Shown: positions 19,980-27,509 of the stretch, in pieces
How the letters are laid out: every line of letters starts with the position of its first letter
Position numbering within the stretch: position 1 is the first letter of the stretch
Origin: the human T2T-CHM13v2.0 reference genome, Homo sapiens
DNA length: 64,000 bases
Assembly (NCBI RefSeq): GCF_009914755.1
Contig: NC_060925.1
Reading direction: 5' to 3' (one strand)
Program-made: the position numbers and the translations under genes
The notes under the pieces: generated by a model
What the model saw: the letters and a program-made list of their open reading frames with translations, nothing else
What the model was told of the DNA's origin: nothing
Databases searched by the model: none

Positions 19980-20321
19980 GCTTTGGTCCTGCCCATCTCT
20001 CCTCTCTCCAATTCTATACTCATGGTTGGGGTAGTAATGATCTGCCATGGACCACACAGTCAAATGCCACCATAAGCCTGGTATTCAAGACAGGAGCTTC
20101 CTGCTAGACCTGCCTCAGAGCCTCACTCTCAGTGGCCTGAGTATACCAGTGAAGAGAAAACATCTGTACCCTCACGGACCTATAGTAGCCTCTACTAGAA
20201 GCAACCAGCCTAGCACTGGGAAACAAATGGGCAGGGACTGGAGGGAGGGTAATCTAGCACCTGACACTCCTGCTTTCTCAGAACTTACCTGTGATTTCCT
20301 ACTTTTGCAGCAGGAACTCTG

Positions 20322-20948
20322 TTTTTTATTTTATTTTATTTATTTTTTGAGATGGAATCACGCTCTGTCGCCCAGACTTTGGAGTGCATTGACATGATCT
20401 CGGCTCACTGCAACCCCCTGCTCCAAGGTTCAAGCGATTCTCCTGCCTCAGCCTGTAGCTGGGACTACAGGTGCCTGCCACAAGGCCCAGCTAATTTTTG
20501 TATTTTTAGTAGAGACTGGGTTTCACCAATGTTGGCCAGGCTGGTCTTGAACTCCTGACCTCAAGTGATCCACCTGCCTCAGCTTCCCAAAATGCTGGGA
20601 TTACAGGCGTGAGCCACCACGCCCGGCCAGGAACTCTGTTTTTGTTGTTATTGTTGTTTTGAGACGGAGTCTCGCTCTGTCACCAGGCTGGAGCGCAGTG
20701 GTGCGATCTCGGCTCACTACAAGCTCTGCCTCCCGAGTGCACGCCATTCTCCTGCCTCAGCCTCCCGAGTAGCTGGGACTACAGGCGCCCACCACCACGC
20801 CTGGCTAATTTTTTTTGTATTTTTAGTAGAGACGGAGTTTCACTGTGTTAGCCGGGACGGTCTCGATCTCGATCTCCTGACCTCGTGATCCGCCCACCTT
20901 GGCCTCCCAAAGTGCTGAGATTACAGGCGTGAGCCACCATGCCCAGCC
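20322..20948 (-). mobile_element. Two tandem reverse Alus (20322-20628 AluS-like; 20639-20948 AluY-like)
   Basis: Flanked by three copies of gaactctgttttt. Confidence 0.95.
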
Positions 20949-21449
20949 AGAACTCTGTTTTTTTAAATAGTGTTGCACCTCACTATCAGACAGATTTGTG
21001 CTAATGAAAACAACAGATTTTCGCTCTTCCGCACTTTTCTAACATGATGCCTTCCAAACATCCATGTGGGTCAGCAATTGCTAGGAGAAGCTTCAACCAA
21101 GTAACTCACCAAAACTACCAAGGCATTGAACTCTCAAAAAAAAAGGGAGTAAGAAAATTGACTTCCTTCTGGATTTTAAGCTGACTTCTAAATTGGTGCC
21201 CTGGATCTGCACTGATAATGCCAAGTTAAAACACTAAAGAATTTTGCAATCTTGGAAGAGTTTTTCGTAAACATTATGAATGCTTCTAATTTTCAGTGAT
21301 GGAGAGGGACCAGTGTTAATAATGGAGGTCTTCTCATGGCCTGTGCTTACCCACTTGGTGATATTACACCTTTCACTGAGATCAAGCAAATTTACTGAAG
21401 CTGTAAAGGGACAACTTCAGGCTCGAGTCTTCCATATGGTCCAGTATCA

Positions 21450-21915
21450 CTGTGGTATTAGCATGACTTTTCAGTTGCAAGTGACAGAAAACTAGCTTAA
21501 GACAAATAAAGGGGTAGTCTCACTTCAGGAACAGCTGAGTGGAGGTGCTCAAACAATGTTAGCAAGAACCAGACTCGTTCCCAGTTCTCCTTCCCTCTGT
21601 TGTTTCCCCAAGAGGTCACAAGGATCCTGTCAGGCAGTTCCAGGGTTACATTGCATCCAACTAGCAACTCTTTCCAGCAGAGTGCAAGTTTCTCCATATA
21701 ACTGCGAAGTTCTGGAGTTGAATCTCATCAGCCTAGCTTGGATCACATGCTTACTCCTGAACCAATCAGAGTCCAGTTAGGTGGAATGTTTTAATTGGCC
21801 AGGCCTAGGTCATGTAGCCACCCTTGGAAGCAGAGTGCAGGGATCAGTTGCACTCAAGCTACAGAGACTGAGAATTGGAGAAGAGCATTTCTCAAATAAA
21901 ATCTGAGCAGAACAA
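21450..21915. mobile_element. Old MLT1-type LTR
   Basis: gacttttcagttgcaagtgacagaaaac...aaccaatca...ggtcatgtagccaccc motifs. Confidence 0.65.
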
Positions 21916-21967
21916 AACATATTTACTACTCTTGAAGAACCATTGTTCGTGCTTCTCCAAGATTTTG

Positions 21968-22000
21968 GAGAGAGAGAGAGAGAGAGAGAGAGAGAGAGAG
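21968..22000. repeat. (GA)n microsatellite
   Basis: Direct reading. Confidence 0.97.
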
Positions 22001-22084
22001 ACATGAAGAGAGAATGAATATATAAATGAAAAAAAAATGCCTCCAGATAAATTCAAATGATAAATGACTTTCTCCATCAACCTT

Positions 22085-24026: not shown

Positions 24027-24333
24027 CTTTTTTTTTTTTTTTTTTTTTGAGACAGAGTTTTGTTTTTGTTGCCCAGGCTGGAATGCAATGGTGTGATCTC
24101 GGCTCACTGCAACTTCCGCCTCCCGAGTTCAAGCGATTCTCCTGCCTCAGCCTCAGGAGTAACTGGGATTACAGGCATGCACCACTGTGCCCAGCTAATT
24201 TTTTTTGTATTTTAGTAGAGTCGAGGTTTCACTATGTTGGTCAGGCTGGTCTCGAACTCCTGACCTCAGGTGATCCACCCTCCTTGGCCTCCCAAAGTGC
24301 TGAAGTTACAGGCGTGAGCAACTGTGCTCGGCT
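24027..24333 (-). mobile_element. Alu (AluS-like)
   Basis: Reverse Alu; TSD ctggtaaaca. Confidence 0.95.
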
Positions 24334-24684
24334 GCTGGTAAACATTTTTTAAAGAGTCTAGACTTGATCCCCACCAATGTACCTACCTCTCCTGAACATT
24401 GCCAACATATACCCACAGATTTTTCATCTCTTCCCCCATCTCCACAAGTCCTATAGGAAACTCAAGCCTGACAATTTGTCCCAAAACCACATCTGATCCA
24501 TTCCATTTTTGTGATGGGAGGTGGCTTGGGTGCTTGCTACTTGTGAATTTGTCATTAAGCACCTCTTGAGAGTTGGTGCTTTTATGGCTGCCCCTCTTTC
24601 TAGGATTATCCCTCCACAAGAAAAAGATGGGATCTTTGCCTGGCAGAGGCCTCCTCTTTTGCAGGTTGAAGACAGTTAAACCCC

Positions 24685-24818
24685 AGCCAGGCACAGTGGT
24701 TCACATCTGTAATCCCAATACTTTGAGAGGCCAAGGTGGGAGGGTCACTTGGGCCAGGAGTTTGAGACCAGCCTGGGCAACATAATGAAACCCCATTTCT
24801 GCAAATAATAATAATAAA
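24685..24818 (+). mobile_element. FLAM-like Alu monomer
   Basis: Single arm; flanks aagacagttaaa / aagacagatcaa. Confidence 0.85.
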
Positions 24819-25783
24819 GACAGATCAAGCTCTAGGCCCATTCCTGGTCTCTTGTTCCCTGATGCTCTTCAACTTTAGGAATGCTATAGCTGGGATTTCT
24901 TCTTGGCCAGGAGCCTTCTCATCCCCAGCTTATCCAGTGTTCTGCTTTTTAGGGACTCAGAGGTGTCCATGGTTATATCTCTTTCCCCAAAACCTAAAGG
25001 GCCTCCATTAGCCCTTTCATCTGTCCCATGAAGTCTTCATGTATAGTAGTCATTGGAGTCCTTGCTGGGTATCTACAATCACCTCAATTGATTGAGTTTT
25101 CTCTACTCCATAGCTTGAGCTGCCTCTCCTCCTCCATTTTTCATGTTAGTTTCAAAAAGTAGAAGAATCTAAAAGACCACCCTGGGTTTGGCAGCTGGGA
25201 AAACCCCAAAGTCTTATCCTGGAACAGCACTAAAACTCACCTGTTATACAGGAGACCTGATTCATGCTGTTCGCATCTCTAGCTCCTGTTTCCTCTGCCT
25301 TCTATAAGAGTTTCTTTAGTCCTGGTTCAGAAGTATCTTTTCTCTCACCCTCTGATACAACAGAGAAAAATTCAGAACATCCCTGTGGTTATAAACCCTC
25401 CCCACTGCTAGCTTTGTCAGAGCATTCAACACTCAGCCAACTAACACTGAGGCTTGAAAATTCCCCTTGCCAGACTAAGAGGTTCTGCCATCACTTCTCC
25501 ATATCGGGTATCTACCGCCCACAGCATCTCAGTAGAGTAGTACCCCAGCCAAGAGCACTCTTTCCCCATGCTAGGGGTGACCTTTCCTAAAAATACCCTC
25601 AACTTTCAGATCCTCATAAGTCTCTAGATTAACTAAATAGTCTTTCCTTCACCTCTCCCCCAATAACTAGGCCAACGATTTTAGTGGCAATTGGGTTGTT
25701 TTCTTATGGAGATTGTCTAACCATATCTAACACAACAACTCCATTCCCTGGTATCTCCCTTGGATTGTACGCTGATTAACATC

Positions 25784-26084
25784 TTTTTTTTTTTTTTTTT
25801 TTTGAGATGGAGTCTCACTCTGTCGCCCAGGCTGGAGTGCAGTGGCGTGATCTCTGCTCACTGCAAGCTCCGCCTCCTGGGATCACGCCATTCTCCTGCC
25901 TCAGCCTCCCGAGTAGCTGGGACTACAGGTGCCTGCCACCACGCCTGGCTAATTTTTTTGGATTTTTAGTGGAGATGGGGTTTCACCGTGTTAGTCAGGA
26001 TGGTCTCGATCTCCTGACCTCGTGATCTGCCCTCCTCGGCCTCCCCAGTGCTGGGATTACAGGCATGAGCCACCGCGCCCAGCC
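25784..26084 (-). mobile_element. AluY-like
   Basis: Perfect TSD ctgattaacatcttt. Confidence 0.95.
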
Positions 26085-27509
26085 TGATTAACATCTTTAG
26101 CAAACTTAAGTAAGGCTGTGTTTTCCCCCTCCTGAAGACCTTGCTGGGCTCTCTTTATTTGTTCAGGAACTTAAGAGAATTTGCACGGTCTTTTCAATTT
26201 TATGTGTGTTTATTTTTTCACAGTTATTTTGAATCTCACAATTCTTAGAGGCTTCTGGAAGTCTATATCTACCTCCACGTGCAAATTTTCCAATGTTATC
26301 TTCATCCTTGCCCTAAATATCAATTGGCTTTATTTCTAGAGGTAATGATGAGTCCATGGAATGGATATAAAATTCAATAAGATTCAAAATAATTCAAAAT
26401 ATAATCCATATATCCTCAGCCTCATTTGCCTGTAAAGACAAAATTAGATATTATTTAATAAGTTTTTTTACCCAACTTACTCTAGGATGAGCACCCACTT
26501 TCCTACTTGTAGGAATTAACCCTACCTCAAAGTGTCCTTCAGCCATTTTAAAGAGTTTCTCCAGGGCCTCTTGAGTTGAGAATAAGTTCTTGAATGGCTA
26601 GTCATCTTGCCAGCATACTACTTGTTCAGCTTCTATAGCAGATGGCTCCCAGGAGCTTGCTGCATCTCCAATAGTGACCACAAGCAGCAACCTATTTTGG
26701 CTTCCAGCGGGGACAATGTTTTCTGTCCTGGCTGCTGCCACCTCTGCTGATGGGGCTGAAATCTGCCTCCTTAAGGCTGGTGTGACTTGTAACTGCTGTC
26801 CTGATACTACCTGACTTCCTCCTCTCTTTCCCAATGTTTTTCCCAAGATCTGGGCAATACAGACTTTTTCATCTTGTTAGAATCGGATGTGGGAATTGAG
26901 GAGAAAGGAAAAATGAAGGATGTCTGTACTCCCCCCAACTCACTTCTCACAGAGAGTGTACTATCACCATTCACAATTATTTGCCACATGTCTGTCTTTC
27001 CCTCTAAACCACAAACTCCTTATTTACCACACAGTGCATGACTTAGACTCCTAGTCAGTGCTGCTTAACTAGTGGAATACTATGATAGACATACAAAGTA
27101 CCATGAGGCAATAAAGAAAATCATCTGTCAGGATCAGATAACTTTTCCTGGAGAGGATAGGAAAAGCAGTACTTAGGACTTGATCTAGAAGGATAAGTAA
27201 GAATTCACTAGGCAGATAAGCGAAAGTGAGAGTAAAGGGTAAGTCACATAATAAAGACACTGCATGTACAGTGTGTCAAACAAGACAGAAGTTTGTTTTC
27301 TTGTCATGTAACAGTCCAGAAATAAGCAGGTAGTTCAGGTTAGGTAGGAAGCTCTAAACATAGGCCCTGTTAAAACATGGGGAAATTCTATTGCTGAAAG
27401 GAAGAAGGAGACAGTGGTTACAGCCATGCATTCCAGCTTGAGGCCTATGCAAAACTCATGAATATAAAAAAGAACAGCTTGTTTGGAGAACAGAAAAGTT
27501 CAGAATCCT

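What the first reader, a model, noticed from the sequence alone, without database searches (positions are those of the whole stretch)
20130..26305. Hidden gag-pol Gypsy relic with a PNMA-like capsid gene
Seen: removing the younger insertions leaves minus-strand peptide remnants in retrotransposon order. Gag versus PNMA1 as recalled: MKITLENLHVEVDIDFQKPL ~ MAMTLLEDWCRGMDVNSQRAL; NNCEK..KIEKTVQ ~ VNCDEAEIEETLQ; ALLKFAKDVNQ..REIPGNG ~ AALLELTGAVDYAAIPREMPGKG; IPDMEK ~ VSDVEK; LKKLL*KAEETGARDANSMNQ ~ LEPLLQKVVEKGAIDKDNVNQ. Then a decayed CCHC-like knuckle (about 24628-24675), protease CLMTNSQV ~ LLDTGSQV, RT GKI*VCVDFLALN / YYNIP / RLMEKV / SKILEKHEQ / LKLSL, and RNase H KTEFLLQK*EITGKF ~ KLEFLALKWAVTEKF. 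Established: PNMA/MOAP1 genes derive from Gypsy gag and some form capsids; mammalian Gypsy elements are extinct. Inference: an unusually long, undomesticated copy of that lineage linking a PNMA-type gag to its own pol. It is dead here (stops, frameshifts); I found no integrase or LTRs. It may already be masked as MamGyp-int.
Basis: partly seen in the sequence, partly recalled or inferred. Interest (0 to 1): 0.85.

Follow-up and report, generated by a model that had tools for sequence, protein, structure and literature searches.

The report
Decayed PNMA-type Gypsy retrotransposon relic
An intron of human PIK3R3 holds the dead, insertion-riddled remains of an ancient Gypsy-type retrotransposon whose capsid gene is clearly related to the PNMA genes and which probably still carries a piece of its reverse transcriptase; it is a copy of a repeat kind already described, so it is interesting but not new in kind.

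Summary
The gag part is real. A frameshift-tolerant chain against an HMM of 10 human PNMA ORFs scores far above the null: 0 of 223 null blocks reach it, z 6.5-7.3. The DNA itself aligns to the MOAP1, PNMA1 and PNMA2 loci (nhmmer E 5.7e-9 to 5.3e-5), starting at a conserved ATG at 26305.

About 1.1 kb further on (Alus not counted), a reverse-transcriptase "fingers" fragment at 23597-23472 is the best Gypsy-like piece of the whole 64 kb. It matches 101 of 147 Gypsy representatives, and the domain HMM gives E 0.0038. Its distance from gag fits a gag-pol element.

The other claims are not above chance. That covers the CCHC knuckle, protease, RT thumb and RNase H. I also found no integrase or LTRs.

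Best reading: a decayed, undomesticated copy of the ancient mammalian Gypsy lineage called MamGyp-int, from which PNMA genes derive. One preprint states that link (10.1101/2023.02.09.527862). A second RT-like ORF at 19629-19384 is unexplained. Novelty is low to moderate.

The parts
26306..26391 (-). Stretch just 5' of the gag ATG that still aligns with the stretch 5' of the PNMA2 ORF; possibly shared leader of the ancestral element
   Evidence: The nhmmer alignment of window 26093-26391 to L006 (PNMA2 locus) runs past the ORF start at L006:2484 as far as 2567; E 5.3e-5.
26088..26305 (-). gag N-terminal (PNMA N-terminal domain-like) part, with conserved ATG at 26305-26303, stops and frameshifts
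   Evidence: nhmmer to the PNMA1 locus L004, E 3.1e-6. Chain segments match HMM positions 1-76 and 59-73.
25784..26087 (-). Alu inserted into gag, flanked by a duplicated ...AAGATGTTAATCAG target site
   Evidence: blastn to Alu copies. The duplication was read.
25740..25783 (-). gag continues after the Alu: PREIPGNG, 7 of 8 identical to the PNMA profile consensus
   Evidence: HMM positions 79-86, segment score 19.6 bits at the strict setting.
25116..25648 (-). gag capsid domain relic, including KLRVFLGKVTPSMGKE at 25605-25558 and LKKLL*KAEETGARDANSMNQV at 25319-25254
   Evidence: nhmmer to the MOAP1 locus L005, E 5.7e-9, and to PNMA1, E 2e-6. In hmmsearch it is the top hit of 852 chunks, E 0.014. 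tblastn finds it with 6 PNMA paralogues.
24353..25115 (-). Spacer where nucleocapsid and protease would be expected; interrupted by a half Alu at 24690-24818; no supported coding remnant
   Evidence: The PR sub-profile gives no block here among its top 10. The PR domain HMM has no hit here. CLMTNSQV scores p about 0.49.
24028..24352 (-). Alu insertion
23352..23750 (-). Reverse transcriptase fingers relic; core 23597-23472, KKSGKI*VCVDFLALNRHST...
   Evidence: It matches 101 of 147 Gypsy representatives and ranks first of 1830 chunks. The RT-fingers HMM gives E 0.0038, 14.0 bits. The best tblastn E is 0.007.
22087..23350 (.). Younger high-copy interspersed repeat (family not named), itself carrying two Alus (22351-22678, 22756-23055), inserted into the RT
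   Evidence: The own-genome searches found 2542, 2625, 1066 and 965 first-look candidates. Of these, 40 were scored in each search, at 73-96% identity. The alignment ends give the boundaries.
20963..22086 (-). Possible further RT/RNase H debris ([26 protein letters not shown]...), with a (CT)n run at 21960-22000 and an old repeat piece at 21709-21828; weak evidence only
   Evidence: The extension test gives 12 of 1292 null blocks at or above the observed score at one setting, and 70 of 1292 at another. Single-peptide p values run from 0.006 to 0.30.
20130..20328 (-).
   Evidence: KTEFLLQK scores p about 0.78. The RH domain HMM has no hit here.

Best explanation
[quoted passage not shown] Repbase and Dfam call this kind MamGyp-int; the label comes from the literature and was not tested here. 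The copy lies antisense in a PIK3R3 intron.

Shown:
- A PNMA-type gag runs from its ATG at 26305 to about 25116 and is broken by stops, frameshifts and an Alu.
- A Gypsy-type RT fingers fragment lies at 23750-23352 on the same strand.

Inferred:
- The two belong to one gag-pol element, because their order, strand and spacing fit.
- The element has since lost recognisable nucleocapsid, protease, most of RT, RNase H, integrase and LTRs. The losses came from about 100 million years or more of neutral decay, deletions and at least eight later insertions.
- It has no function now. As DNA it is a fossil of the retrotransposon that was active before or around the time PNMA genes were domesticated.
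For: 1. Gag against a profile of 10 intact human PNMA-family ORFs. My frameshift-tolerant chain scores 84.7, 42.9 and 28.5 bits at three penalty settings. The 223 null blocks are other places, both strands, and reversed sequence. Their means are 48.3, 19.8 and 16.3 and their maxima 62.5, 30.5 and 22.2. None of the 223 reaches the observed score.
2. The best plain hmmsearch hit of that profile among all 852 six-frame chunks of the window is here (E 0.014). The next unrelated hit has E 1.1.
3. DNA-level nhmmer hits of window segments to PNMA loci: MOAP1 5.7e-9, PNMA1 2e-6 and 3.1e-6, PNMA2 5.3e-5. Weaker hits go to four more PNMA-family loci. In the reverse direction, the PNMA1 CDS against the masked window gives E 2e-5 at 25595-25238.
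4. RT. Among 1830 chunks of 100 aa from the Alu-masked window, the two overlapping chunks at 23798-23349 match 100 and 101 of 147 Gypsy-type polyproteins. The median chunk matches 3 and the 99th percentile 21. An RT-fingers HMM built from 84 of those proteins gives E 0.0038. The next hit outside the two candidate places has E 2.2.
5. Spacing. From capsid end to the RT motif is about 372 codons once Alus are discounted. The distance is 408 and 409 aa in the two natural Gypsy polyproteins where I could place both landmarks. A third, P0150, gave 1461 aa and is a 2526-aa oddity.
6. The RT fragments found no match at E below 0.8 in 27 ERV pol loci of the same genome. They therefore look Gypsy-like rather than like those ERVs.
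Against: 1. Pfam hmmscan of read-through frames gave no PNMA, RVT_1, RT_RNaseH, rve or protease hit.
2. phmmer against PDB chains gave none either.
3. The whole-genome Pfam PNMA search listed 36 places, and this one is not among them.
4. The long pol chain is only z 2.8-3.2, with 2, 0 and 1 of 159 null blocks reaching it. The opposite strand of the same block scores as high (100.7 against 97.9), so much of that signal may be composition.
5. Domain HMMs for protease, RT palm/thumb, RNase H and integrase have no hit here below E 9.
6. No LTR pair was found.
7. Three other PNMA-like gag relics that I fetched show no RT downstream, so gag-only copies exist.
8. A second RT-fingers-like ORF at 19629-19384 covers the same part of RT. 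It does not fit a single simple element.
9. My pol profile comes from RTL1-like (chromovirus-type) relatives, not from the Barthez/Gypsy12_DR clade named in the literature as the PNMA progenitor. That choice lowers sensitivity.
Confidence: 0.7

Rival explanations
1. This is a gag-only PNMA-family pseudogene, a decayed duplicate or gag-only copy. The RT-like fragment 1.5 kb downstream is a chance match or debris of an unrelated element.
For: Gag is the only part with strong statistics. Three other PNMA-like relic loci have gag without detectable RT, for example L063 with a 171-bit chain. Protease, RNase H, integrase and LTRs are absent. A second RT-like fragment at 19629-19384 shows that such fragments occur here outside a simple gag-pol order.
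Against: The RT fingers hit has a window-wide E of 0.0038 and is the top-ranked of 1830 chunks. It lies on the gag strand, downstream, at about the distance expected in a gag-pol element. By chance, the top chunk of 128 kb of strand would fall within 3 kb downstream of gag about 2% of the time; that figure is my estimate. The weak extension signal across the inserted repeat (12 of 1292) points the same way.
Confidence: 0.22
2. Two or more separate old LTR-element relics lie head to tail here. One carries gag and the first RT fragment. Another contributes the RT-like ORF at 19629-19384. The 6-kb 'element' is therefore a composite.
For: Both RT-like pieces align to the same profile positions, 371-412 and 379-405, so they cannot be consecutive parts of one RT. 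They show no DNA similarity to each other. The second sits beside a dispersed repeat at 18556-19027.
Against: The second fragment is only borderline (E 0.061). No further pol parts follow it.
Confidence: 0.3
3. All resemblances are chance matches picked out by eye in ordinary intronic DNA.
For: Pfam and PDB searches were blank. Most single pol peptides are within chance.
Against: For gag, 0 of 223 null blocks reach the chain score. There are also independent DNA-level hits to several PNMA loci down to E 5.7e-9.
Confidence: 0.01

Closest known systems
MamGyp-int (ancient mammalian Gypsy internal sequence of Repbase/Dfam, with MamGypLTR1/2 LTRs)
   Same: It is a Gypsy-type relic in the human genome with a PNMA-type gag. 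The literature equates the PNMA2 ORF with the gag part of MamGyp-int (10.1101/2023.02.09.527862, passage read). Repbase lists the family (PMC5753468, passages read).
   Different: I had no MamGyp-int consensus or Dfam model, so membership is inferred. No MamGyp LTRs could be looked for by name, and no LTR pair was found.
Human PNMA family genes (PNMA1, MOAP1/PNMA4, PNMA2 and others)
   Same: Gag is homologous over the N-terminal domain and the capsid, with the same start codon position. DNA identity is roughly 55% by eye in the nhmmer alignments.
   Different: This copy is not an open reading frame: it has many stops, frameshifts and an Alu inside. It is probably followed by RT, which no PNMA gene has. 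It lies antisense in a PIK3R3 intron and has no gene model (hub annotation).
Gypsy12_DR / Barthez-clade Metaviridae of fish and reptiles
   Same: These are named in print as the closest active relatives or progenitor clade of PNMA gag (PMC3789554 abstract and passages; PMC3670739 Table 1 passage). They are full gag-pol elements.
   Different: Not compared here. Two word-index searches for long proteins with PNMA-like gag found none.
RTL1/PEG11 (sushi-ichi-type domesticated gag-pol)
   Same: It is a mammalian locus that keeps Gypsy gag together with pol remnants. I used its PR-RT-RH part as the seed to fetch Gypsy relatives.
   Different: RTL1 is an intact, selected gene of a different Gypsy lineage. 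This locus is decayed and of PNMA type.

Membership tests
Ty3/Gypsy (Metaviridae) LTR retrotransposon | gag with retroviral-type capsid | tested here: met
   PNMA-type capsid relic at 25648-25116.
Ty3/Gypsy (Metaviridae) LTR retrotransposon | Reverse transcriptase of LTR-element type downstream of gag | tested here: inconclusive
   The fingers part is present: E 0.0038, 101 of 147 Gypsy proteins matched. The YxDD palm and the thumb were not detected.
Ty3/Gypsy (Metaviridae) LTR retrotransposon | Aspartic protease (D-S/T-G) between gag and RT | tested here: not met
   No PR hit. The claimed peptide scores p about 0.49.
Ty3/Gypsy (Metaviridae) LTR retrotransposon | RNase H and integrase after RT (order RT-RH-IN) | tested here: not met
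   The RH and INT domain HMMs and chain scans give nothing in 13000-24700 on the minus strand above the null.
Ty3/Gypsy (Metaviridae) LTR retrotransposon | Flanking long terminal repeats | tested here: not met
   The only direct repeats in 14-32 kb are Alus. nhmmer of the 5' flank against the window finds no partner. At this age LTRs could have diverged beyond detection.
MamGyp-int (Repbase/Dfam) | Match to the family consensus or HMM | not testable with these tools
   No Dfam or Repbase library was on hand. The link rests on PNMA homology plus the literature statement that PNMA2 corresponds to MamGyp-int gag.
PNMA gene family (Pfam PF14893 / PF20846) | Match to the Pfam PNMA models over the curated cut-off | tested here: not met
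   No hit, and the place is not listed among the 36 found. Homology shows only with a full-length custom profile, frameshift handling and DNA comparison.
PNMA gene family (Pfam PF14893 / PF20846) | Intact open reading frame (domesticated gene) | tested here: not met
   The read-through of 24383-26320 has 28 stops. The chain changes frame repeatedly. An Alu lies inside.

The most novel reading that the evidence does not exclude
This may be one of very few human loci where the progenitor retrotransposon of the PNMA genes survives with gag still physically joined to its own reverse transcriptase. It would be an undomesticated sister of PNMA1/MOAP1/PNMA2. Its orthologues in other mammals could then date the activity of that element. 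They could also help decide between two origins for the PNMA family: repeated retrotransposition, or one domestication followed by gene duplication. The three other PNMA-like gag relics I fetched lack any RT signal. In the library searched I found no paper that describes pol remnants of this lineage in mammals.
Probability: 0.45. Interest if true: 0.5.

Novelty: new member of a known kind. Interest (0 to 1): 0.33.

Why it matters
PNMA proteins form capsids, cause paraneoplastic autoimmunity and are being engineered for mRNA delivery. How the family arose is still argued in print. PMC3670739 (passages) argues for a single domestication followed by duplication. PMC3789554 (abstract, passages) argues for several retrotransposition events.

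A non-domesticated copy that still links PNMA-type gag to RT would be direct evidence that the whole element was in the lineage, and it would be a neutral yardstick for dating. But the repeat family is already catalogued, and the PNMA-MamGyp link is already stated in a preprint. This locus therefore adds an example and not a concept.

Tried and rejected
- **Pfam hmmscan:** I scanned long (4000 aa) and short read-through frames. The only hits were irrelevant and weak.
- **PDB phmmer:** the RT-like frames and the second RT-like ORF gave nothing relevant.
- **Own-genome searches:** the RT region as DNA and the capsid ORF as protein found only themselves.
- **Own-genome Pfam PNMA search:** this place is not listed.
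- **blastn to 60 PNMA and ERV loci:** region 19001-27500 matched Alus only.
- **Full-length Gypsy HMM (1390 positions) by hmmsearch:** no significant hit; the best was 23597-23499 at E 2.8.
- **12-kb pol chain:** it picked up Alu debris and mixed the two RT fragments, so I discarded it.
- **Pol chains on 4.7-5 kb and 1.2 kb blocks:** within the null. With the unmasked length equalised the result was z about 3, but the opposite strand scored equally high.
- **Long proteins with PNMA-like gag (candidate gag-pol relatives):** one search gave only two PNMA8-like proteins, the other none. None of the 147 Gypsy representatives has a clearly PNMA-type gag.
- **A hoped-for 3' LTR:** window 18556-19027 matches other relic loci, but it is a common dispersed repeat. 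I recognise it from memory as a MaLR-type LTR. It is unrelated to the element.
- **Domain slices:** a first set used wrong column numbers and was redone.

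
Full report
**What is there**

The window is human chr1:46,004,001-46,068,000 (T2T) and the finding lies in a PIK3R3 intron (hub annotation). 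I read 20000-26500 on the minus strand, listed stop-to-stop frames and translated with X at stops.

**Insertions**

- blastn against Alu copies places Alus at 20329-20962 (two), 22351-22678, 22756-23055, 24028-24352, 24690-24818 (a half unit) and 25784-26087.
- The Alu at 25784-26087 sits inside gag. It is flanked by a duplicated AAGATGTTAATCAG, so the peptides ALLKFAKDVNQ and REIPGNG were once adjacent.
- A further block, about 23350-22087, is a high-copy repeat. Four own-genome searches gave 965 to 2625 first-look candidates. Forty were scored in each, at 73-96% identity. The alignment ends define the boundaries. I could not name the family.
- A piece at 21828-21709 matches 9 other genomic places at 72-90% identity.
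- A (CT)n run lies at about 21960-22000.

**Gag is real and PNMA-like**

Standard tools were blank:
- Pfam on long and short read-through frames gave no PNMA hit.
- The whole-genome Pfam PNMA search listed 36 places, and this one is not among them.

That search did give me the intact human PNMA-family loci. From 10 of their ORFs I built a full-length profile. Four lines of evidence then agree.

1. By plain hmmsearch without filters, over all 852 six-frame chunks of the window, the top hit is 25698-25522 on the minus strand (E 0.014). There KLRVFLGKVTPSMGKE faces the profile's capsid start. The next unrelated hit has E 1.1.
2. tblastn finds the same spot with six paralogues.
3. I wrote a frameshift-tolerant chaining alignment that treats stops as penalties and bridges insertions with a jump cost.
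   - On 24300-26500 it scores 84.7, 42.9 and 28.5 bits at three penalty settings.
   - The 223 null blocks of equal length are other places, both strands, and reversed sequence. Their maxima are 62.5, 30.5 and 22.2.
   - None of the 223 reaches the observed score, and z is 6.5-7.3.
- On the Alu-masked sequence the stricter path keeps [23 protein letters not shown] (7 of 8 identical), KLRVFLGKVTPSMGKE (9 of 16) and LKKLL*KAEETGARDANSMNQV (12 of 22).
4. nhmmer aligns the DNA itself.
   - Window 25116-25648 aligns to the MOAP1 locus (E 5.7e-9) and to PNMA1 (E 2e-6).
   - Window 26094-26332 aligns to PNMA1 (E 3.1e-6), and 26093-26391 to PNMA2 (E 5.3e-5). Weaker hits go to four more family loci.
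   - The PNMA2 alignment runs 83 nt past the ORF start (L006:2484 to 2567), so homology continues 5' of the ATG at 26305.
- The DNA alignment also shows that two small segments of my protein chain (VSEGERK, LKSIREQETRN) are misplaced.

**Reverse transcriptase**

I fetched Gypsy-type polyproteins by searching 1.84 billion representatives with the PR-RT-RH part of human RTL1. I used 147 of the 150 returned, leaving out the three closest RTL1 forms.

- tblastn hits pile up at two minus-strand places: 43 in 23000-24000 and 63 in 19000-20000. No other 500-base bin has more than 12.
- As an unbiased scan, I compared 1830 chunks of 100 aa from the Alu-masked window with the 147 proteins.
  - The chunks at 23798-23349 match 100 and 101 of them.
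  - The chunk at 19749-19450 matches 81. The next matches 49.
  - The median is 3 and the 99th percentile is 21.
- An RT-fingers HMM built from 84 of the proteins gives E 0.0038 (14.0 bits) for 23648-23349 and E 0.061 for 19749-19450. Every other place has E of at least 2.2.
- The aligned core is KKSGKI*VCVDFLALNRHST..., facing the conserved K-K-x-G...D-Y-R-x-L-N stretch.
- The fragments found nothing below E 0.8 in 27 ERV pol loci of the same genome.
- The distance from the capsid end (about 25116) to the RT motif is about 372 codons without the Alus. It is 408 and 409 aa in the two natural polyproteins where I could place both landmarks. A third, P0150, gave 1461 aa and is an oversized multi-domain protein.

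**What is not supported**

- Domain HMMs for protease, RT palm/thumb, RNase H and integrase have no hit in the region below E 9. Sub-profile chains on 1.2-kb blocks put no block of the region in the top 10 for PR, RH or INT.
- The long PR-RT-RH chain over 19630-24700 reaches z 2.8-3.2 when null blocks have the same unmasked length; 2, 0 and 1 of 159 null blocks reach it. But the opposite strand of the same block scores 100.7 against 97.9, so composition may explain much of the signal. With unequalised blocks it was within the null.
- A targeted test asked whether RT continues across the inserted repeat (…GMGVSG | repeat | RLMEKV…SKILEKHEQ). At one setting 12 of 1292 null blocks reach the observed score. 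At another, 70 of 1292 do.
- I tested the claimed peptides one by one against the expected profile columns. The values are the fraction of null windows times three frames:

| Peptide | Value |
|---|---|
| CLMTNSQV | 0.49 |
| YYNIP | 0.20 |
| RLMEKV | 0.11 |
| SKILEKHEQ | 0.014 |
| LKLSL | 0.30 |
| PSPSLKIRS (my own reading) | 0.17 |
| KTEFLLQK | 0.78 |

- Combined by Fisher's method (my arithmetic, not a tool output), this is about 0.05. That is a faint collective signal and no more.
- The CCHC stretch has no histidine in the expected pattern (read), and the chains give it no support.
- No LTR pair was found.

**The second RT-like ORF**

The ORF at 19629-19384 (81 aa, open) covers the same RT columns as the first fragment. 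It shows no DNA similarity to it. It lies outside the finding, next to a dispersed repeat at 18556-19027. That repeat matches other loci at E down to 6.5e-28. From memory only, I recognise it as a MaLR-type LTR. I cannot say whether this ORF is chance (E 0.061), a piece of another element, or a rearranged part of this one.

**Comparison with what is known**

- Repbase lists MamGyp-int with MamGypLTR1/2 as the Gypsy remains of the human genome (PMC5753468, passages).
- PNMA genes are traced to Gypsy12_DR-like elements (PMC3789554, abstract and passages) of the Barthez clade (PMC3670739, passages including Table 1).
- A T2T-wide capsid survey kept 24 intact metaviral capsid genes and two pseudogenes and found no LTRs beside them (PMC11011659, section 5 read). 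I did not open its supplements, which may list this place.
- My searches for MamGyp terms found no paper that describes pol remnants of this lineage or this locus.
- Of three other PNMA-like gag relics that I fetched with 8-kb context, none shows an RT signal downstream. One, L063, is a nearly full-length gag pseudogene with a 171-bit chain.

**Verdict**

The gag relic is certain, the RT fingers fragment is significant and correctly placed, and the rest of the claimed pol is not demonstrable.

The most likely explanation (0.7) is a decayed, undomesticated copy of the MamGyp-type Gypsy element from which PNMA genes derive. The main rival (0.22) is a gag-only relic with an unrelated or chance RT-like fragment.

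It is a new example of a known kind, and standard repeat annotation probably already masks it. Its modest interest lies in the physical gag-RT linkage. That linkage could help date the progenitor and test how the PNMA family arose.

Noticed in passing
window 19384-19629, minus strand: An open 81-aa frame resembles the RT fingers of Gypsy-type elements: it matches 81 of 147 representatives, and the domain HMM gives E 0.061. It covers the same RT columns as the fragment at 23597-23472 but shows no DNA similarity to it. It lies outside the finding's coordinates.
   Followed up: partly
window 18556-19027: A dispersed repeat matches other fetched loci: L064 at E 6.5e-28, and also L027, L017 and L031. 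I recognise it from memory as a MaLR-type (MST/THE1-like) LTR on the minus strand. No tool checked that label.
   Followed up: partly
window 22087-23350: A repeat of about 0.6 kb has thousands of genomic copies at 73-96% identity. It is inserted into the RT relic and later took two Alus. I did not identify the family.
   Followed up: partly
window 10500-10950, plus strand: Chunks here are the best (non-significant) hits of the RT palm HMM (E 0.56). They also appear in the RNase H and integrase lists (E 6-8), and 34 of 147 Gypsy proteins match. This may be debris of another LTR element, inside lncRNA LOC101929626.
   Followed up: no
L063 (G000:C23:107835500-107843499), minus strand, locus 7028-5506: A nearly full-length PNMA-like gag pseudogene lies on the X chromosome: the chain scores 171 bits over profile positions 1-403, and the Pfam hit contains stops. 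No RT signal follows in the 5.5 kb downstream.
   Followed up: partly
window 16515-16676: This stretch has nhmmer similarity (E 2.6e-6) to a stretch about 1 kb from the PNMA-like hit in L021 (chrX). It is probably a shared common repeat. I did not examine it.
   Followed up: no
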